NCBI GenBank assembly: GCA_018167155.1
Contig: GCA_018167155.1_4332.1
Strand: one strand, 5' to 3'
Length of the DNA: 43,803 nt
DNA from: a phage
The translations under genes were made by a program, and so were the position numbers. The first letter of the stretch is position 1. Each line of letters opens with the position of its first letter. Below are positions 1 through 43,803 of the stretch, piece after piece. A model generated the notes under the pieces. The model made no database searches, was not told the DNA's origin, and saw nothing but the letters and a program-made list of their open reading frames with translations.

Positions 1-30
1 AAAAAAAATCCCGGCTGGGTCAGGGCCGGG
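1..30 (-). terminator. Rho-independent terminator ending the leftward lysis operon
   Basis: Minus-strand transcript forms a CCCGGC...GCCGGG stem (about 10-30) followed by a run of 8 U (plus-strand A1-A8), 67 nt downstream of the lysozyme stop. Confidence 0.7.
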
Positions 31-96: not shown

Positions 97-585
97 TCAA
101 CCTTTCACCGCGCGCCCGATAGCCTCTGCCTCTTGCCACGGTTTACCGTCAAACAGCGCCAGGCGACCGGCGGTACGGCGACGCAGGCCGAGGAGCGGTT
201 TGCCGTTCTGGTTGATGAACAGCGCCAGCTTAGCCCGCAGCGTCGCGATATCCCCGGAACGCAGCGCCTTACCCGTGCCAGTAGTAGCGGCAATCACACC
301 AGCACCCGCGTTATAGACCAGGTCGCACACAGCATCGAAATGTGCCTGTGTCAGTGAATGGTGTGCTGCCGCATCAACCGCGGCAACGGCCTTAGCCATA
401 TCGCGATTCAGTAACAGGAGGCCTTGCCCGGGAGTGATTGTCTTACCTGGTGTTACGTCTGGGCCATAGTGTCCGTAACCAATAGTCAGGTACTTCTCGT
501 TTGGTGTAGCACGATACGCAGTTCCGCGGAACCCCTCAAACGCGGCGGTAAAATGCAACCCGTTATCTGAAATGTTTCGAGACAC
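97..585 (-). CDS. Endolysin, glycoside hydrolase family 24 (T4-type lysozyme)
   Basis: ORF track 97..636 contains the motif FEGFRGTAYR...YLTIGYGHYG typical of phage lysozymes with catalytic Glu. Track start is TTG at 636; a GTG at about 585 preceded by GGAGGA is the more likely start. Confidence 0.85.
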   Translation of the reverse strand: MSRNISDNGLHFTAAFEGFRGTAYRATPNEKYLTIGYGHYGPDVTPGKTITPGQGLLLLNRDMAKAVAAVDAAAHHSLTQAHFDAVCDLVYNAGAGVIAATTGTGKALRSGDIATLRAKLALFINQNGKPLLGLRRRTAGRLALFDGKPWQEAEAIGRAVKG

Positions 586-835
586 GCTTATGTCCTCCGT
601 ATGACAGCCACGCCTGACGAATCTGACGCAGCGCAACTAATGTGATTAATGTCTCAGGCAGCGTCGGCGACATGCTGCCCTGTAACAGGTGGATACATCC
701 GGCGGCGCAGACGATAGCAGTCAGGATATAGAGCACCCGACCAAATAGCCCGTCGTCTACGCTGGGATGGTATACGTTAAACAGCGATGTGCCCCCGATT
801 GCCAGCATACCACCGAACCAGAATAACTCATTCAT
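563..835 (-). CDS. Holin-like small membrane protein
   Basis: ORF track 563..874; ATG start at 835 (MNELFWFGGMLAIGG...). About 90 aa, two hydrophobic helices and a charged C-terminus, directly upstream of and overlapping the lysozyme gene. Confidence 0.65.
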   Translation of the reverse strand: MNELFWFGGMLAIGGTSLFNVYHPSVDDGLFGRVLYILTAIVCAAGCIHLLQGSMSPTLPETLITLVALRQIRQAWLSYGGHKRVSKHFR

Positions 836-1136
836 CCGGGCCTCCTCGACGTGCGATGTATTCTCCGGCGACAATACCGGAGAGACGGGAATAGATAGGC
901 ATCCAGAGAATAGCGATTATGAAGCCCAGGCCTGCGATTTCACGGTCGCCCGTGATACCGAACCATTGAGCCGCGAGAGGTGCGCCAAATACGGCGCAAG
1001 TGAAGCCAGTTGCAATAAAGCAGAAGCCGTCTATGGGGCCAGAAATAACGGACTTATGTTGTCGTAGTCCGATTACCCCACCGGCTAGTGCGGCAGTGAG
1101 AAGCCAGCCTGTCACTGTTTCAGTAAATTTATCCAA
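828..1136 (-). CDS. Holin or antiholin-like membrane protein
   Basis: 102 aa with multiple hydrophobic segments, TTG start preceded by GGAGGA, overlaps the next holin gene by 8 nt. Confidence 0.55.
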   Translation of the reverse strand: MDKFTETVTGWLLTAALAGGVIGLRQHKSVISGPIDGFCFIATGFTCAVFGAPLAAQWFGITGDREIAGLGFIIAILWMPIYSRLSGIVAGEYIARRGGPDE

Positions 1137-1211
1137 GATGAATCCTCCAGGTGCGTATTAAGTATGCAGTAACTGGAGGATACCACGGGTAGGAATTATC
1201 TTAATAACGGT

Positions 1212-1505
1212 TTATTTGTGTCTCCAGATGTATTGTCGTCTCTGCGGTTTCGTCGGAATATCTTCATAACCCAGCGATTTCCAGTAATTAAATAGCCGAT
1301 TAGCAATAGCCGCGCGCTCCTGTGTCTTAAACTCACCGAGATTCACGGCCTTCCCGTTCTGGAATCCACAGGCGCGGACAGCTTTGCGTCTGGCCTGAAT
1401 CTCGGGGTACATCGCGTTACGGCGGCGCTTGTATATCTGTGTTTTAGCTCTCGGTGACAGCGGCGCAAGGCCGCTTCGTTTCAGGATGTCAGTTGCGAGG
1501 CTCAT
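1212..1505 (-). CDS. Hypothetical basic protein
   Basis: ORF track 1212..1529; internal ATG at 1505 overlaps the upstream stop as ATGA (translational coupling). Confidence 0.5.
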   Translation of the reverse strand: MSLATDILKRSGLAPLSPRAKTQIYKRRRNAMYPEIQARRKAVRACGFQNGKAVNLGEFKTQERAAIANRLFNYWKSLGYEDIPTKPQRRQYIWRHK

Positions 1506-1882
1506 GCTATGGCCCCACATTTCGAGCATGTCTGGAAGTCGTCCACATCATGCATAACCCACTCATGCTTGCATTCCTGCGCGTCTTCTTTACGACATCC
1601 GGATTGCCCCATAGCGTCTCCAACCCCTTCCACATGTGTAACGGACCCACAGTTCGCGCACTCGACGTAATCCGGGAACTGGTCTTTGTATTTCTGTAAC
1701 TCGGCTTCCGCTTTTTCGGCACGTGTCAAAAAGCTGAAAGCGTCATTGAGTATCTGCACACGCCGCGCCACGAGTTCCTTGAACTTACGCTCAAGTTCCT
1801 CGTAGTCTTCGTATCTTACGTATTCGCCGTCAGCATCCGCTACACAAAAACCGTTGTTAGAGTATCTCTGAACCATAATCAT
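1502..1882 (-). CDS. Cys-rich hypothetical protein, paralog A (coiled-coil N-term, QSGCRKEDxQECxHxW motif)
   Basis: 126 aa ORF; shares the motif QSGCRKED(A/T)QEC(K/E)H(E/S)W and a C-terminal CxxCG with the protein at 2079..2585. Confidence 0.55.
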   Translation of the reverse strand: MIMVQRYSNNGFCVADADGEYVRYEDYEELERKFKELVARRVQILNDAFSFLTRAEKAEAELQKYKDQFPDYVECANCGSVTHVEGVGDAMGQSGCRKEDAQECKHEWVMHDVDDFQTCSKCGAIA

Positions 1883-2082
1883 TTCTCCTGTTTACCAAGT
1901 CGCTTAGGTGAGCAGATAGTGCGTACCTCTGAATCGATGGGCTTGTCGCCCTGAAACAGGAAGTGCGCGTTCTCTGCGGCGCGTGCCGCTGACTGGCACG
2001 CCTCCATCGAGTAAAACGTTTCTGACGCCGCTAGTTGCATCTGGCCTGCGGATAGTACCCAGATAAAAAGGATGCTGGTCAT
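1879..2082 (-). CDS. Hypothetical small protein with hydrophobic N-terminus
   Basis: 67 aa ORF tiled between the two paralogs with 4-nt overlaps on both sides. Confidence 0.45.
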   Translation of the reverse strand: MTSILFIWVLSAGQMQLAASETFYSMEACQSAARAAENAHFLFQGDKPIDSEVRTICSPKRLGKQEK

Positions 2083-2585
2083 TCAACTCTCCCGCACGCA
2101 CGACACACAACATAATCCTCGTCAGACAACACCCAATCGTGCTCGCATTCCTGAGTATCGTTTTTCGGTTTATATTCCTTGTCGTCCCACTCACGTTTAC
2201 AACATTTAGAGCAAAGCTCACTACCAGGAACGTTGTTCGGATTGCCTTCGCTGAGAAACAACCCAGGCATAATAATCCAAGAGTGCTCGCATTCCTGAGT
2301 ATCTTCCTTACGGCAACCGGATTGCTCAGGCCCGTGCCCACCTACTACGTAGCTCTCCCCTTTAGGTAAAGGACCGCCCCGCCCTGTTACGCGGCCAAAG
2401 TCTTCATTCATCAACTTTATTGTCTCCTGCAACTCAGCCACCAGTGCCGAAGCATCACGTAACTGGTTCTTAAGTGACAGCACCTCATGGGCCAGGTCTT
2501 CGCACTGTTGCTTGTATGGGTTGTTACTTACCTGCTGCCGTAGCTGGTCAATCAGGTATTCGAATACTTCGTTTTTGTTACTCAT
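2079..2585 (-). CDS. Cys-rich hypothetical protein, paralog B (two copies of the QEC-H-W module)
   Basis: 168 aa; N-terminal coiled coil, then SGCRKEDTQECEHSW and DTQECEHDW repeats and a C-terminal CRACG. First gene after the leftward promoter at about 2616-2644. Confidence 0.55.
   Translation of the reverse strand: MSNKNEVFEYLIDQLRQQVSNNPYKQQCEDLAHEVLSLKNQLRDASALVAELQETIKLMNEDFGRVTGRGGPLPKGESYVVGGHGPEQSGCRKEDTQECEHSWIIMPGLFLSEGNPNNVPGSELCSKCCKREWDDKEYKPKNDTQECEHDWVLSDEDYVVCRACGRVE
2148..2303. repeat. Two exact 21-bp direct repeats (GTGCTCGCATTCCTGAGTATC) inside paralog B
   Basis: Copies at 2148-2168 and 2283-2303; a related copy sits near 1561-1580 in paralog A. Confidence 0.7.
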
Positions 2586-2615
2586 CTCTGTCTTTCCTCT
2601 CGTTTGTGTAAATGA

Positions 2616-2644
2616 ATAGTAGCCTATTATATCTTAGTGTGCAA
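2616..2644 (-). promoter_or_regulatory. Sigma70-like promoter (minus-strand TTGCAC-N17-TACTAT) with embedded AATAG-N4-CTATT palindrome
   Basis: Plus-strand gtgcaa at 2639-2644 and atagta at 2616-2621 with 17-nt spacing; palindrome AATAGTAGCCTATT at 2615-2628; 30 nt upstream of the start at 2585. Confidence 0.6.
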
Positions 2645-2791
2645 GTAAATTTTATTGGTGTTTGTATTGTTGCATCTCCTGCAATAGTCGCTTTGATTGT
2701 TGCGTTTGGTGAAATAGAACAAAAATGATACGCTGCTGGGTAGCAGCGTAAGTCACTCAGTAAAATCCCAAACTATTGTTACAATATAACA

Positions 2792-3822: not shown

Positions 3823-3856
3823 AACCCTCACTCCTCTGTCTCGTTCCGATAAGTGA

Positions 3857-3885
3857 ATAGTATCCTATTATGTTGGGGTGTGCAA
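3857..3885 (-). promoter_or_regulatory. Sigma70-like promoter (TTGCAC-N17-TACTAT) with AATAG-N4-CTATT palindrome
   Basis: Plus-strand gtgcaa 3880-3885 and atagta 3857-3862; palindrome AATAGTATCCTATT at 3856-3869. Confidence 0.6.
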
Positions 3886-4266
3886 GAGATTCATTGAAAA
3901 TGGTTACGTTGCCGTTGTGGATTCTTTATGGGAGGTTGTGCCTTTATTCTTATTACTTGGTAACTAAAGGGCAGGCCTTAAGCCTGCCCAATAATCGTTA
4001 CATTTTTACGGTCGCGAATCTATGGCACATTAAGAAAATCAGATACTTAAGAGATATGCTGCCGATGTGAATAGAGCTTGCCCAGGGCAACCGGAGATAC
4101 TTAGGAAGGAAAGTTACGACAATTCTTATGTTCAGTAAGCCTGTGTTTAACCCTTTGCTTGACGCACGGGTTAAACATTCTTACAAGGTGAACAAGAATC
4201 AAAGTAACTAAGATATAGAAGCACCTTAAACGAAGATTTTCATAATGTCAATAGGTGCGATTATGT

Positions 4267-7281: not shown

Positions 7282-7354
7282 TTGATATGTGAATAGTACC
7301 ATATTAATTATTTTATAAAAGCACATTGACATGTGAATAGTTCGCTATTATAGT
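7282..7354. promoter_or_regulatory. Divergent control region with two copies of the AATAG-N4-CTATT operator-like palindrome
   Basis: Copy 1 AATAGTACCATATT at 7292-7305; copy 2 AATAGTTCGCTATT at 7336-7349 inside TTGACA(7326-7331)-N17-TATAGT(7349-7354), which drives the + gene at 7386. A minus-strand TACTAT over copy 1 may serve the XRE gene. Confidence 0.55.
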
Positions 7355-10170: not shown

Positions 10171-10199
10171 TTGACACCTGAATAGCGAACTATTATAGT
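10171..10199 (+). promoter_or_regulatory. Sigma70-like promoter TTGACA-N17-TATAGT with AATAG-N4-CTATT palindrome in the spacer
   Basis: TTGACA 10171-10176, TATAGT 10194-10199, palindrome AATAGCGAACTATT at 10181-10194. Confidence 0.6.
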
Positions 10200-10935: not shown

Positions 10936-11409
10936 ATGGAACATATAAAAGATTTTCTTAGTTATAACCGAGAAACCGGAATATTCACATGGATACAACC
11001 TACGTACAGACGAGGAAAACCCGGAGACATCGCAGGATGCATCAATAGTAGCGGATACTGGCGAATACCTTATATGGGTAGATATTACATGGCCCACAGG
11101 CTTGCTTGGTTTTTCGAGTACGGTGAATGGCCCGAGGGGCCTCTTGACCACATAAACCGTGACAGGTTAGACAATAGGATTTCTAACCTAAGGAAAGCAA
11201 CCACCGCAGATAATGTGCGAAACGCTAAAAATAAGGGAGCGAGAACGGGAGTTAAGGGAGTAGTTAAAAACGGCAACCGATTTTATGGGCGGGTACATTT
11301 TAACTACAAAAGTTATAACGCGGGCAGCTACGGAACTCTTGAAGAAGCAGAAAGCGCTGTAAAGAAATTAAGAGAAAAACTGCATAAGGAATTTTATTGC
11401 CATGACTAG
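10936..11409 (+). CDS. HNH homing endonuclease with AP2-like DNA-binding domain (paralog 1)
   Basis: ORF track 10912..11409; ATG at 10936. HINRDRLDNRISNLR is an HNH motif; GVKGV...GNRFYGRV...EEA is AP2-like. Confidence 0.7.
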   Translation: MEHIKDFLSYNRETGIFTWIQPTYRRGKPGDIAGCINSSGYWRIPYMGRYYMAHRLAWFFEYGEWPEGPLDHINRDRLDNRISNLRKATTADNVRNAKNKGARTGVKGVVKNGNRFYGRVHFNYKSYNAGSYGTLEEAESAVKKLREKLHKEFYCHD

Positions 11410-14492: not shown

Positions 14493-14796
14493 AGAGGGCC
14501 GCGTACAGAAATACGCAAAAGAGCGATTCGAGGCCATTGGTGGCCTCGTTCGTAAACTTTCCTACGAAAACAGACGCGCAGCGATGGATTTGTTAGTGGT
14601 CCTGCCCGGCGGCATCATCTGGTTCGTCGAGATTAAGAAAGACGAAAACACGAAGCCAGACCCGCACCAGCTACGGGAACATGAGAGATTCCGGAAACGT
14701 GGTGCGAATGTTTTTGTCGTTGGTTCGTTTAAACAGGTTGACACCCTAATAGCGAACTATTATAGTCAGCCCTACACCAACAATATAAGGAATTGA
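14482..14796 (+). CDS. VRR-NUC domain nuclease
   Basis: 104 aa; DLLVVLPGGIIWFVEIKK...QLREHERFRKRGANVFVV matches the VRR-NUC PD-(D/E)XK pattern. Confidence 0.6.
   Translation: MATKEGRVQKYAKERFEAIGGLVRKLSYENRRAAMDLLVVLPGGIIWFVEIKKDENTKPDPHQLREHERFRKRGANVFVVGSFKQVDTLIANYYSQPYTNNIRN
14738..14766 (+). promoter_or_regulatory. Sigma70-like promoter TTGACA-N17-TATAGT with AATAG-N4-CTATT palindrome, inside the 3' end of the VRR-NUC gene
   Basis: TTGACA 14738-14743, TATAGT 14761-14766, palindrome AATAGCGAACTATT at about 14748-14761. Confidence 0.55.
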
Positions 14797-26456: not shown

Positions 26457-26782
26457 TGATTTCTACCTTCAAAGATTGCTTCTAAGCCCATGATAATGTC
26501 TATCTCGAACAGGCTAAGCTGTTTTTGCGTAACATCGAGATAGGCTTTCAGGTCTTGCCACGTAACGGATTCTCTTGCAAACAATACTACAGCGTCCTCG
26601 CGCACGTGTCGCGTAAACTTAATGTCGCAATACGTCTCAAAGGTGGATATAAAAAGGGGCGGGCATTCTGGCCCACCCCGTCGCGCTGCACGTTTTTTCT
26701 TATCGATTACACCCATCGCGATAAGCGCCTGTTCGTGCCCGTCAGCTATAGAATCAAACTCTCTGATTTTATGCTTATCCAC
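26450..26782 (-). CDS. Tail assembly chaperone, gpT-like frameshift extension
   Basis: 110 aa ORF in the -1 frame relative to the upstream G-like gene; that frame stays open upstream across the G stop. Confidence 0.5.
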   Translation of the reverse strand: MDKHKIREFDSIADGHEQALIAMGVIDKKKRAARRGGPECPPLFISTFETYCDIKFTRHVREDAVVLFARESVTWQDLKAYLDVTQKQLSLFEIDIIMGLEAIFEGRNHG

Positions 26783-27338: not shown

Positions 27339-27367
27339 TTGCACACCCCAATATAATAGGGTACTAT
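27339..27367 (+). promoter_or_regulatory. Sigma70-like promoter TTGCAC-N17-TACTAT with AATAG-N4-CTATT palindrome
   Basis: TTGCAC 27339-27344, TACTAT 27362-27367, palindrome AATAGGGTACTATT at about 27355-27368. Confidence 0.6.
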
Positions 27368-27396
27368 TCACTTACACCAACAATGAGGGGTTTAAA

Positions 27397-30763: not shown

Positions 30764-31158
30764 TATTTCACCTTGTTGGCTTCTTCGTTAATTAGTTGCT
30801 GGAAGCGGGACACGTTAGTCCTGACCATCCCGGCGGGGGCCTGTTGTGACCAACCGTACTCCAGCCGTTGCGCATACGGCAGGTTATTAGTCAGCGTGAA
30901 CTCGCGCCAGTCGGTGTCTTTCAGTACGAAACTTGTAGCGTTTCCGATAGCTATGTTTCCCGATTTATCGGTGGCGTCTGTAGTTCCGGAGGAAGGGGCG
31001 CTGCCAGACGCCATCCAGTTCATACGAAAGCGACCCGTATCTACCGGACTCGCCTTTATAATAGCGGAAAACAGCTTGATAGACACCTGACGCATCACCT
31101 TCTCAGGGTTCTTCTTCGCCTTTTCCACGAACTTAGAGACATCAAGCGCAAAACTCAT
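30763..31158 (-). CDS. HK97 gp10-like neck / tail completion protein
   Basis: 131 aa; PVDTGRFRMNWMAS resembles the DTGxLRxSW core of the HK97 gp10 family. Confidence 0.5.
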   Translation of the reverse strand: MSFALDVSKFVEKAKKNPEKVMRQVSIKLFSAIIKASPVDTGRFRMNWMASGSAPSSGTTDATDKSGNIAIGNATSFVLKDTDWREFTLTNNLPYAQRLEYGWSQQAPAGMVRTNVSRFQQLINEEANKVK

Positions 31159-36140: not shown

Positions 36141-36184
36141 AGCTTAGCACATTTTCAGTTAAAAGTCAACTATTCGAATAGTTT
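36141..36184 (-). promoter_or_regulatory. Candidate leftward promoter (TTGACT-N17-TAAGCT) abutting a 16-bp perfect palindrome AACTATTCGAATAGTT
   Basis: Minus-strand -35 from plus agtcaa 36164-36169 and -10 from plus agctta 36141-36146; palindrome at 36168-36183. Confidence 0.35.
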
Positions 36185-36235: not shown

Positions 36236-36264
36236 TTGCAGACACCAGTATAATAGGGTACTAT
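36236..36264 (+). promoter_or_regulatory. Sigma70-like promoter TTGCAG-N17-TACTAT with AATAG-N4-CTATT palindrome
   Basis: TTGCAG 36236-36241, TACTAT 36259-36264, palindrome AATAGGGTACTATT. Confidence 0.6.
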
Positions 36265-36298
36265 TCAGTTATCGAAGCGAGAGATAAGGGGCTTAAAG

Positions 36299-38112: not shown

Positions 38113-38141
38113 TTGCAGACACCAATATAATAGGGTACTAT
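38113..38141 (+). promoter_or_regulatory. Sigma70-like promoter TTGCAG-N17-TACTAT with AATAG-N4-CTATT palindrome
   Basis: TTGCAG 38113-38118, TACTAT 38136-38141; the promoter-to-SD sequence is nearly identical to the 36236 promoter. Confidence 0.6.
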
Positions 38142-38167
38142 TCAGTTAACTTAAACAGGAGATGAAA

Positions 38168-43752: not shown

Positions 43753-43781
43753 AATATAGTAGGGTCGCAGGTAATAGTCAA
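43753..43781 (-). promoter_or_regulatory. Sigma70-like leftward early promoter TTGACT-N17-TATATT with a degenerate AATAG/CTAGT palindrome over the -35
   Basis: Plus agtcaa 43776-43781 and aatata 43753-43758; about 30 nt upstream of the first early ORF. Confidence 0.5.
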
Positions 43782-43803
43782 CTAGTCATTGCAGAAAATA
43801 GAT

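What the first reader, a model, noticed from the sequence alone, without database searches (positions are those of the whole stretch)
1134..1180. Shine-Dalgarno sequence of the first lysis gene sequestered in an 8-bp hairpin
In the leftward transcript, UCCUCCAG (from 1173-1180) pairs with CUGGAGGA (1143-1150), which contains the GGAGGA ribosome-binding site 6 nt upstream of the TTG start at 1136. The 22-nt loop lies between. This could restrain holin translation and set lysis timing.
Basis: seen in the sequence. Interest (0 to 1): 0.45.

Follow-up and report, generated by a model that had tools for sequence, protein, structure and literature searches.

The report
Hairpin masking a phage holin ribosome site
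A conserved RNA hairpin in a Kagunavirus-type E. coli phage buries the ribosome-binding site of its first lysis gene, a known kind of brake on premature lysis (as in lambda S and T4 lysozyme), here possibly released by a promoter hidden inside the hairpin.

Summary
On the minus strand, AUCCUCCAG (1181-1173) pairs with CUGGAGGAU (1150-1142), which holds the GGAGGA Shine-Dalgarno (SD) site 6 nt before the TTG start (1136) of the first of two holin genes. The loop is 22 nt.

An 8-9 bp hairpin alone is not rare (about 19 and 4.6 expected by chance per window). This one, however, gives the most occluded ribosome-binding site of 76 crude gene calls (16.0 vs 6.8 +/- 3.2 kcal/mol). Its arms are essentially invariant in about 80 relatives, and a 67%-identity lineage keeps the arms with an unrelated loop. 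Formal covariation is not significant.

Homologous holin genes in Dhillonviruses and KW1E-like phages carry a terminator-like hairpin directly against their start codon. In all six siphovirus lineages a -10-like hexamer sits at the base of the 5' arm (here TGgTATCCT, 1185-1177).

Best reading: transcripts reading in from upstream are translationally silent for holin, and transcripts starting near 1170 lack the anti-SD arm (opening cost 5 vs 12-14 kcal/mol). That matches T4 gene e logic with a sigma-70-type promoter. The promoter is inferred, not shown.

Verdict: a new member of a known kind, of moderate interest.

The parts
1173..1181 (-). 5' arm of the hairpin, the anti-SD sequence 5'-AUCCUCCAG-3'
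   Evidence: Sequence; folds. It is invariant in about 80 relatives except A1174G (a G.U pair) in L039. L116 has C1175U and A1174G, both giving G.U pairs.
1151..1172 (-). 22-nt loop with a weak internal 3-bp helix. The predicted transcription start, about 1170, for the candidate embedded promoter lies here.
   Evidence: The loop is nearly invariant in Kagunaviruses. It is replaced by an unrelated 9-nt loop in L116 and shortened to 14 nt by stem extension in L029.
1142..1150 (-). 3' arm 5'-CUGGAGGAU-3', containing the Shine-Dalgarno GGAGGA (1148-1143)
   Evidence: SD:anti-SD duplex is -9.3 kcal/mol. The only variant is U1149C in L151. A GenBank curator annotates an RBS here.
1134..1136 (-). TTG start codon of the first holin gene
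   Evidence: TTG is conserved in all Kagunavirus-type sequences and in L116. The homologous starts in Dhillonviruses are ATG, with the same M-D-K N-terminus.
828..1136 (-). First holin (or antiholin) gene, 102 aa, three predicted transmembrane domains
   Evidence: phrog_2359 holin, E = 5e-29. No Pfam hit. Annotated 'antiholin/holin' in phage Schulenburg.
1177..1185 (-). Candidate extended -10 promoter element TGgTATCCT, overlapping the 5' arm (inferred, not shown)
   Evidence: T1185, G1184 and 1182-1177 are invariant, while the 'n' position 1183 is a common G/C polymorphism. The element is kept in L116. Analogous -10-like hexamers sit at the hairpin base in EP23, SO-1, L113, KW1E and P0039. 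Chance of a TGn -10-like element within 5 positions is 0.0046.
1137..1211 (-). 75-nt spacer between the upstream gene and the holin gene, under strong purifying selection
   Evidence: Mean pairwise identity is 95.0%, against 84.8% for the holin CDS and 65.6% for its third codon positions.
563..835 (-). Second holin gene, 90 aa; its ATG overlaps the end of the first holin gene
   Evidence: phrog_2508 holin, E = 2e-33; sequence.
97..585 (-). Endolysin, GTG start with its own GGAGGA SD
   Evidence: PF00959 Phage_lysozyme, E = 4e-26; sequence.
1212..1505 (-). Upstream gene of unknown function. Transcripts of this gene would read into the hairpin.
   Evidence: phrog_9632. No minus-strand terminator was called between 2729 and the hairpin.
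2614..2750 (-). Terminator (2750-2729), followed by promoter-like sequence (TATAAT 2631-2626) and a copy of the palindromic motif (2614-2629). This is the probable start of the transcription unit that reads into the lysis cassette.

Best explanation
The hairpin is a cis-acting translational insulator for the first lysis gene. Any mRNA that includes the 5' arm, meaning transcripts reading in from the four small upstream genes, folds AUCCUCCAG onto CUGGAGGAU. That buries the GGAGGA SD, so holin is essentially not translated from those messages. Productive holin mRNA most likely starts inside the element, from a weak sigma-70 extended -10 promoter (TGgTATCCT, 1185-1177) that overlaps the 5' arm. 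A transcript starting at about A1170 lacks the anti-SD arm and carries a 34-nt unstructured leader with a free SD. The TTG start further limits the translation rate. The lysis clock would then be fed by a small dedicated promoter and decoupled from upstream transcription. This is the logic shown for T4 gene e, but with a host-type promoter. What is shown: the pairing, its stability, its outlier status in this genome, its conservation, and parallel hairpin and -10 layouts in other genera. What is inferred: that the hairpin forms in vivo and represses translation, that the promoter is real, and that lysis timing depends on it.
For: Hairpin stability is -17.3 kcal/mol, z = -3.5. This RBS has the highest opening cost of 76 crude gene calls. 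The opening cost is 12.4-14.2 kcal/mol for transcripts that include the arm, and 5.1 for starts at 1172-1169, against a genome median of 6.3. The spacer is 95% conserved while third codon positions are 66% identical. Of seven observed substitutions touching the stem or its immediate extension, six preserve or extend pairing and one breaks it. L116, whose holin is 67% identical, keeps the arms, SD, TTG and TGgTATCCT with an unrelated loop. Six siphovirus lineages of this holin family all have a hairpin against the start codon, an occluded RBS (8.8-19.3 kcal/mol) and a -10-like hexamer at the base of the 5' arm. These are TGn-TATAGT in Dhillonviruses, and TTGACC-17-TACTAT and TTGACC-18-TAACAT in KW1E and P0039. 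The predicted +1 base is a purine in five of the six. Chance estimates are 0.0046 for a TGn -10-like element at the base, and about 0.07 x 0.012 for the KW1E-type promoter. The Kagunavirus and Dhillonvirus spacers are not demonstrably homologous, so the shared layout may have arisen independently. The T4 gene e precedent is described in PMC3014915.
Against: There is no transcription-start or expression data for any of these phages. TATCCT matches the -10 consensus at only 4 of 6 positions, and its conservation is confounded with its role as the anti-SD arm. The -35 region is poor and polymorphic (A/G at 1201). The promoter pattern was noticed first and tested afterwards, so the chance estimates are post hoc. 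Covariation within Kagunavirus-type sequences is not significant. In L116 the computed sequestration is weak in a long context, 7.3 vs 6.9 kcal/mol. A sigma-70 promoter would be active from the start of infection, so by itself it would not give 'late' timing. The near-invariant 22-nt loop in Kagunaviruses is not explained by this model alone.
Confidence: 0.45

Rival explanations
1. Constitutive throttle. Every holin mRNA contains the hairpin, and the SD is exposed only by rare breathing of the stem. Together with the TTG start, this sets a very low constant holin synthesis rate and so a long lysis time. No internal promoter is involved.
For: The hairpin, SD and TTG are all conserved. This is the simplest reading. 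Lambda shows that holin translation-initiation signals, including stem-loops, tune lysis time. Promoter-like sequence further upstream at about 2645-2615, with no terminator called in between, would supply transcripts.
Against: An opening cost of 12-16 kcal/mol over a consensus SD predicts near-complete silencing rather than tuning (inference from the established equilibrium model of de Smit and van Duin, cited from memory). This model does not explain why TG at 1185-1184 is invariant while 1183 varies. It also does not explain why unrelated spacers in other genera place a -10-like hexamer at the base of the hairpin. In Dhillonviruses and KW1E the equivalent hairpin is a canonical terminator, so read-through alone would give very little mRNA.
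Confidence: 0.27
2. The element is mainly transcriptional. It is a weakened intrinsic terminator or attenuator separating the upstream genes from the lysis cassette, or a relic of one. The overlap of its 3' arm with the SD would then be incidental or secondary.
For: Related holin genes have textbook terminators at this position: EP23 with a 12-bp stem and U-run, KW1E with an 8-bp stem and U8. L116 has a 12-bp stem, a 9-nt loop and UUUAUUUU. The window has 5 U in the 8 bases after GGAGGA.
Against: The 22-nt loop and interrupted U-tract make the window's hairpin a poor terminator, and the scan did not call it. The SD sits exactly inside the stem with canonical 6-nt spacing, so translational occlusion follows whatever the transcriptional effect. 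A terminator with no promoter downstream would leave the lysis genes almost unexpressed.
Confidence: 0.12
3. The hairpin is a repressed default state that a trans-acting factor or RNA processing opens late in infection. Candidates are cleavage in the A/U-rich loop followed by 3'-exonucleolytic removal of the 5' arm, or a phage or host RNA or protein that binds the loop.
For: The 22-nt loop is as conserved as the stem within Kagunaviruses, which simple pairing does not require. Three substitutions are seen in the L025 type and several in L029, but the loop is otherwise fixed.
Against: No candidate partner was identified. L116 has an unrelated 9-nt loop and L029 a 14-nt loop with several changes, so the loop sequence is not required across the clade. 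There is no Rfam match.
Confidence: 0.08
4. The hairpin is a chance inverted repeat or a DNA-level protein-binding palindrome with no RNA function.
For: About 19 perfect 8-bp hairpins are expected per window by chance. Formal covariation is absent.
Against: It ranks first of 76 RBSs for occlusion. The arms are conserved while the loop length changes from 22 to 14 to 9 nt, which a spacing-dependent DNA operator would not tolerate. Substitutions in the arms are pair-preserving transitions.
Confidence: 0.05

Closest known systems
Bacteriophage T4 gene e (lysozyme) translational control, also seen at soc, 49 and I-TevI (McPheeters et al. 1986; reviewed in PMC3014915)
   Same: It concerns a lysis gene whose SD or start codon is sequestered in a hairpin on transcripts reading in from upstream. 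A promoter lies in the DNA encoding the 5' strand of the structure, so its transcripts lack that strand and are translated. The window has the sequestered SD (shown in silico) and a candidate -10 in the 5' arm (inferred).
   Different: In T4 the internal promoters are gp55-dependent late promoters (TATAAATA) with mapped 5' ends, and the gene is the endolysin. Here the gene is a holin or antiholin. The candidate promoter is a host sigma-70 extended -10 type with no built-in late timing, and nothing has been mapped.
Lambda S gene upstream stem-loop (sdi) and dual-start motif
   Same: An upstream stem-loop controls ribosome access to the SD of a holin gene, and mutations in these signals change lysis time.
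   Different: The lambda structure partitions initiation between two starts, Met1 for antiholin S107 and Met3 for holin S105. The window has a single TTG start; the next in-frame start-type codon is a GTG at codon 8 with no SD. The stem here is much stronger, and the holin is unrelated to S (no Pfam hit; phrog_2359).
Terminator-like hairpins against the holin start codon in Dhillonviruses (EP23, SO-1) and KW1E-like phages
   Same: They share the same holin family (32-46% identity). The hairpin ends 6-12 nt before the start codon, the RBS is strongly occluded, and a -10-like hexamer sits at the base of the 5' arm.
   Different: Those hairpins have short loops and U6-U8 runs, making them canonical intrinsic terminators. 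They have only weak G-rich SD-like sequence (-3.9 to -5.7 kcal/mol) and ATG starts. The window has a consensus SD, a TTG start, a 22-nt loop and a poor U-tract. Spacer homology to the window is not demonstrable.
MS2 lysis gene L start occlusion (from memory, not checked here)
   Same: A phage lysis gene whose initiation region is closed by RNA secondary structure.
   Different: MS2 L is activated by translation termination at the overlapping coat gene. Here the upstream stop codon lies 75 or 59 nt before the start depending on haplotype, and is not close enough to melt the stem.

Membership tests
T4 gene e-type gating (RBS hairpin plus internal promoter) | The SD or start codon is sequestered in a stable hairpin on read-through transcripts | tested here: met
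   -17.3 kcal/mol, z = -3.5. Opening cost is 12.4-14.2 kcal/mol with the arm present. Rank 1 of 76. In silico only.
T4 gene e-type gating (RBS hairpin plus internal promoter) | A promoter lies within the 5' strand of the structure, so its transcripts lack that strand | tested here: inconclusive
   TGgTATCCT at 1185-1177 gives a predicted +1 at A1170. It is conserved, and parallel elements occur in five other lineages. No 5'-end data exist.
T4 gene e-type gating (RBS hairpin plus internal promoter) | The internal promoter is a phage late promoter (T4 TATAAATA, gp55-dependent) | tested here: not met
   There is no TATAAATA in the spacer. The candidate is a sigma-70 type.
T4 gene e-type gating (RBS hairpin plus internal promoter) | Upstream transcription reads into the gene | tested here: inconclusive
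   No minus-strand terminator was called between 2729 and the hairpin, and promoter-like sequence lies at about 2645-2615. No RNA data.
Lambda S sdi / dual-start holin regulation | Two in-frame start codons a few codons apart, giving holin and antiholin | tested here: not met
   There is a single TTG with an in-frame TAA 8 codons upstream. The next start-type codon is GTG at codon 8, without an SD.
Lambda S sdi / dual-start holin regulation | An upstream stem-loop includes the SD of the first start | tested here: met
   GGAGGA (1148-1143) lies wholly within the 3' arm.
Intrinsic (Rho-independent) terminator | A G+C-rich stem with a short loop (3-8 nt) | tested here: not met
   The loop is 22 nt, and the scan did not call it. 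The feature is met in EP23 and KW1E.
Intrinsic (Rho-independent) terminator | A U-run directly after the stem | tested here: inconclusive
   UUCAUCUU has 5 of 8 U but is interrupted. L116 has UUUAUUUU.
RNA thermometer | An SD hairpin that melts in the physiological range (30-42 C) | tested here: not met
   The same structure gives -20.0 kcal/mol at 30 C, -15.2 at 42 C and -14.1 at 45 C.
Any curated Rfam family | A match to a covariance model | tested here: not met
   No match with E <= 1 in 800-1600 on either strand.

The most novel reading that the evidence does not exclude
A compact 'insulated lysis promoter' module may be shared by several genera of E. coli siphophages (Kagunavirus, Dhillonvirus, KW1E-like). 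In this module a host-type promoter has its -10 element built into the base of a hairpin that lies directly against the holin start codon. Transcripts arriving from upstream are terminated and/or translationally masked. Only transcripts born inside the hairpin express holin. Because the Kagunavirus and Dhillonvirus spacers show no detectable homology, the design may have arisen more than once. The G+C-rich discriminator sequences (CCAGTT, CCCAGT, TCCCCG) could additionally couple lysis-gene transcription to host physiology.
Probability: 0.35. Interest if true: 0.55.

Novelty: new member of a known kind. Interest (0 to 1): 0.38.

Why it matters
Holin synthesis rate sets the time of lysis, which is a central fitness trait of a phage and a practical parameter for therapeutic phages. 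Kagunaviruses are common in phage-therapy collections. If the hairpin gates holin translation, single-base changes in 1142-1185 should retune lysis time and burst size. If the embedded promoter is real, T4's 'start inside the hairpin' trick is not specific to phages with their own late sigma factor. It would instead be a general and possibly convergent way to insulate lethal genes from read-through. It would also explain how homologous holin genes with a terminator directly against their ATG get expressed at all.

Tried and rejected
1. Covariation within Kagunavirus-type spacers. On 12 distinct sequences the score is 0.079 against 0.070 for shuffles, and 90 of 500 shuffles reach it. The stem is conserved but shows no covariation.

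2. Homology of the Kagunavirus and Dhillonvirus spacers. MAFFT lined up CGTGnTAT and the arms, but a local alignment is no better than shuffles (z = -0.1). I therefore dropped the claim of compensatory changes between those two genera. EP23 vs KW1E (z = 7.3) and window vs L116 (z = 8.3) are homologous pairs.

3. GATAAT (1200-1195) as the lysis promoter -10. It is broken to GATAAA in three haplotypes and to GATACC in L116. In haplotypes with the HslV gene inserted, its TAA is simply that gene's stop codon.

4. Translational coupling to the upstream ORF. The stop codon lies 75 or 59 nt before the start depending on haplotype, too far and not conserved.

5. RNA thermometer. The hairpin is still -15.2 kcal/mol at 42 C.

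6. A DNA operator palindrome. The arm spacing changes from 22 to 14 to 9 nt between lineages.

7. Known RNA families. No Rfam match.

8. A dual-start motif. None is present.

9. Pfam assignment of either holin. No hit.

10. Published transcription-start data for Kagunaviruses. Only in-silico promoter predictions were found.

Full report
**What the window is.** Megablast places the left end of the window in the Kagunavirus group of E. coli siphophages (K1G/K1H-like, Guernseyvirinae). There are 309 matching phage records, the best at about 90-92% identity. The left 1.1 kb, read on the minus strand, is a lysis cassette of three genes:
- a 102-aa membrane protein (1136-828; phrog_2359 'holin', E = 5e-29);
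- a 90-aa membrane protein (835-563; phrog_2508 'holin');
- a PF00959 lysozyme (585-97).

A curated Kagunavirus record, phage Schulenburg, annotates the first gene with the same TTG start and a GGAGG ribosome-binding site. It calls the product 'antiholin/holin' with three transmembrane domains.

**Checking the observation.**
- 5'-UCCUCCAG-3' (1180-1173) is the exact reverse complement of 5'-CUGGAGGA-3' (1150-1143).
- A1181:U1142 adds a ninth pair, and the loop is 22 nt.
- GGAGGA (1148-1143) is followed by six bases and then TTG (1136-1134).
- An in-frame TAA at 1160-1158 rules out a longer reading frame.

The 57-nt segment folds into this hairpin at -17.3 kcal/mol, against -8.9 +/- 2.4 for shuffles (z = -3.5, none of 200 as stable). 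The hairpin is also the centroid structure of a 116-nt context, although that longer segment as a whole is not unusually stable (z = -1.0).

**Is it more than chance?** As a bare inverted repeat, no. Dinucleotide shuffles of the window contain 19.0 +/- 4.9 perfect 8-bp and 4.6 +/- 2.5 perfect 9-bp hairpins with loops of 3-30 nt, against 36 and 8 observed. What is unusual is the position. I made 76 crude gene calls and computed, for each, the ensemble free-energy cost of opening positions -15 to +3. The holin gene ranks first at 16.0 kcal/mol, against a mean of 6.8, an sd of 3.2 and a median of 6.3. It also combines a consensus SD (-9.3 kcal/mol duplex with the 16S tail) with one of the few TTG starts.

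**Conservation within the group.** I compared 40 IMG/VR loci, 38 metagenome loci and two contigs of a more distant lineage. The metagenome loci were found with a pattern taken only from the holin N-terminal coding sequence, so the search was blind to the hairpin. Together they give 32 distinct spacers.
- The 75-nt spacer is 95.0% identical pairwise, while the adjacent holin CDS is 84.8% identical and its third codon positions only 65.6%. The spacer is therefore under strong purifying selection.
- The common polymorphisms all lie 5' of the stem (1209-1207, 1201, 1189, 1183).
- Changes touching the stem are few. A1174G in L039 gives G.U. U1149C in L151 gives A.C, the only disruption. U1172G in the L025 type turns a U.C mismatch into G-C and lengthens the stem. 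C1151A plus C1153U in the LSPA1-like L029 lengthen the stem to 13 bp.
- In the 67%-identity lineage L116, C1175U and A1174G both give G.U, and three further pairs are added.
- L116 is the most informative case. It keeps the SD arm, the 6-nt spacing, the TTG start and most of the 5' arm, but its loop is unrelated and only 9 nt long.

A formal pair count finds no significant covariation (score 0.079 vs 0.070; 90 of 500 shuffles reach it). The SD arm cannot vary freely, and changes on the other arm are wobble-preserving transitions. So the structure is conserved and tolerated changes respect it, but it is not proven by covariation.

**What lies at the same place in other genera.** The same holin family occurs at 32-46% identity in Dhillonviruses (EP23, SO-1), in KW1E-like phages and in some larger phages.
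- In EP23 and SO-1 the holin also begins M-D-K, but with ATG. It is preceded directly by a 12-bp hairpin, six U and then the ATG. The SD-like sequence is very weak (-3.9 kcal/mol).
- KW1E and its relative P0039 have an 8-9 bp hairpin followed by a run of seven or eight U shortly before the ATG.
- EP23 and KW1E spacers are significantly similar (z = 7.3) and differ by compensatory changes in the stem. KW1E and P0039 also differ by a compensatory G-C to A-U change.
- L116's element has UUUAUUUU after the stem, so it sits between a terminator and the window's hairpin.
- In all six siphovirus lineages the computed cost of opening the initiation region is high, 8.8-19.3 kcal/mol.
- In the myovirus-type lineages and in P0033/P0035 the terminator lies further upstream and the RBS is open, at 1-4 kcal/mol.

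MAFFT aligned the window and EP23 spacers through 'CGTGnTAT' and the arms. A local alignment, however, scores no better than shuffles (z = -0.1). I therefore do not claim homology between these two spacers. The resemblance is in layout.

**A -10 element at the base of the hairpin.** In each of the six lineages, a hexamer with the key -10 features (A at position 2, T at position 6, at least 4 of 6 matches) starts within a few bases of the first paired base of the 5' arm:
- TGg/cTATCCT in the window and L116;
- TGaTATAGT in EP23, SO-1 and L113;
- TTGACC-17-TACTAT in KW1E, also called by the independent scan, ending one base before the stem;
- TTGACC-18-TAACAT in P0039.

A start seven bases downstream would fall at the last bases of the 5' arm or in the loop. 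That base is a purine in five of the six lineages. In the window's own composition, a TGn -10-like element falls within five given positions with probability 0.0046. A plain -10-like hexamer does so with probability 0.072, and a 5-of-6 -35 at the right spacing with probability 0.012. These figures are post hoc, because I saw the pattern and then tested it.

Within Kagunaviruses, T1185, G1184 and 1182-1177 never vary, while the base between them (1183, the 'n' of TGn) is a common G/C polymorphism. The other candidate -10, GATAAT at 1200-1195, is not conserved.

For the window, transcripts that include the 5' arm pay 12.4-14.2 kcal/mol to open 1151-1134. Transcripts starting at 1172-1169 pay 5.1, below the genome median.

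**Most likely mechanism.** The hairpin most likely acts as a translational insulator. Messages reading in from the four small upstream genes would carry the anti-SD arm and would not yield holin. Those messages probably come from promoter-like sequence at about 2645-2615, which follows the terminator at 2750-2729, and no terminator was called in between. Messages starting at about 1170 from the embedded weak promoter would have a free consensus SD, moderated by the TTG start. This is the logic established for T4 gene e: early read-through transcripts are about 100-fold less productive, and late promoters lie in the DNA encoding the 5' strand of the structure (PMC3014915). A host-type promoter gives no intrinsic 'late' timing. 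The benefit would instead be decoupling the lysis clock from upstream transcription.

I give this composite model 0.45. Within it, the repression half is more secure than the promoter half.

**Rival explanations.**
- Constitutive throttle (0.27). This is simpler, but it predicts near-silence rather than tuning, and it leaves the -10 regularity unexplained.
- Mainly an attenuator or a terminator relic (0.12). This fits the relatives, but the window's 22-nt loop and interrupted U-tract make it a poor terminator.
- Trans-activation or RNA processing (0.08). The invariant loop in Kagunaviruses motivates this, but the unrelated loops of L116 and L029 weaken it.
- Chance or a DNA-binding site (0.05). 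The rank-1 occlusion and the variation in loop length argue against this.

**Comparison with known systems.** The element works like T4 gene e and like the upstream stem-loop of lambda S, which controls ribosome access to the GGGGG SD of Met1. It is a member of neither.
- There is no T4-type late promoter.
- There is no dual-start motif.
- The holin is unrelated to S.

It is not a canonical terminator or a thermometer, and it matches no Rfam family.

**Verdict.** The feature is real and conserved, and its general kind is already known: SD sequestration at a phage lysis gene. It is a new member of that kind. The embedded-promoter reading and its recurrence across genera form the most interesting part and can be tested directly by 5'-end mapping.

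Noticed in passing
window 2614-2629, 3855-3870, 7292-7306, 7335-7350, 10180-10195, 14747-14762, 27354-27369, 36160-36175, 36251-36266, 38128-38143, 43772-43787: A palindromic motif, TGAATAGTAnnCTATTATAT (core AATAG-N4-CTATT), recurs at intergenic sites: 31 matches at up to 2 mismatches against 9.3 +/- 3.5 expected. A paper on the Kagunavirus fBC-Eco01 listed the same motif as a 'phage RNA polymerase promoter' from a PHIRE prediction. It contains -10-like hexamers in both orientations, so it looks more like a sigma-70 promoter and/or operator motif for a phage regulator.
   Followed up: partly
L041 1175-1212 (EP23), L042 about 1166-1203 (SO-1), L044 1126-1188 (KW1E), L165 about 440-503: In Dhillonviruses and KW1E-like phages the holin ATG sits immediately after a canonical intrinsic terminator (stem plus U6-U8), with little or no SD. 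How these holin genes are expressed is unexplained unless transcription starts inside the terminator. KW1E has TTGACC-17-TACTAT ending one base before the stem.
   Followed up: partly
relatives L002, L003, L005, L006, L009, L014-L016, L019, L025, L034, L035 (upstream of position 1441); window-equivalent about 1198-1212: There is an insertion polymorphism. Many relatives carry an extra gene of roughly 160 aa, annotated as an HslV-family peptidase, directly upstream of the holin spacer. Its TAA stop lies inside the 'GATAAT' of the spacer, 59 nt before the holin start rather than 75 nt.
   Followed up: partly
L116 1-1100: The 67%-identity lineage lacks the second holin gene, so the holin is followed directly by the endolysin. 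It has a different 98-aa hydrophobic protein upstream and only a remnant (ATGAGTAACAAAAATGAAACCTGA) of the window's gene 2585-2079. It also has a tandem repeat, (GGTGTAACAGGT) x about 5, at 108-165.
   Followed up: no
window 1502-1882 and 2079-2585, minus strand: Two small upstream proteins (phrog_6094/29624) share a repeated Cys/His-rich motif, QSGCRKED[AT]QEC[KE]H[ES]W, followed by CxxC. The motif occurs twice in the 168-aa protein. They look like paralogous zinc-binding modules of unknown function lying just upstream of the lysis cassette.
   Followed up: no
window 1-30 and 97-1136: No spanin (Rz/Rz1-like) genes follow the endolysin. The cassette ends in a hairpin plus T8 at the window edge. 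The fBC-Eco01 paper places the spanin genes elsewhere in Kagunavirus genomes.
   Followed up: no
window 4144-4177, 11260-11307, 26500-26543, 30972-31013: These are the other perfect 9-bp (or longer) inverted repeats with loops of 14-30 nt found in the chance-control scan. They were not examined.
   Followed up: no
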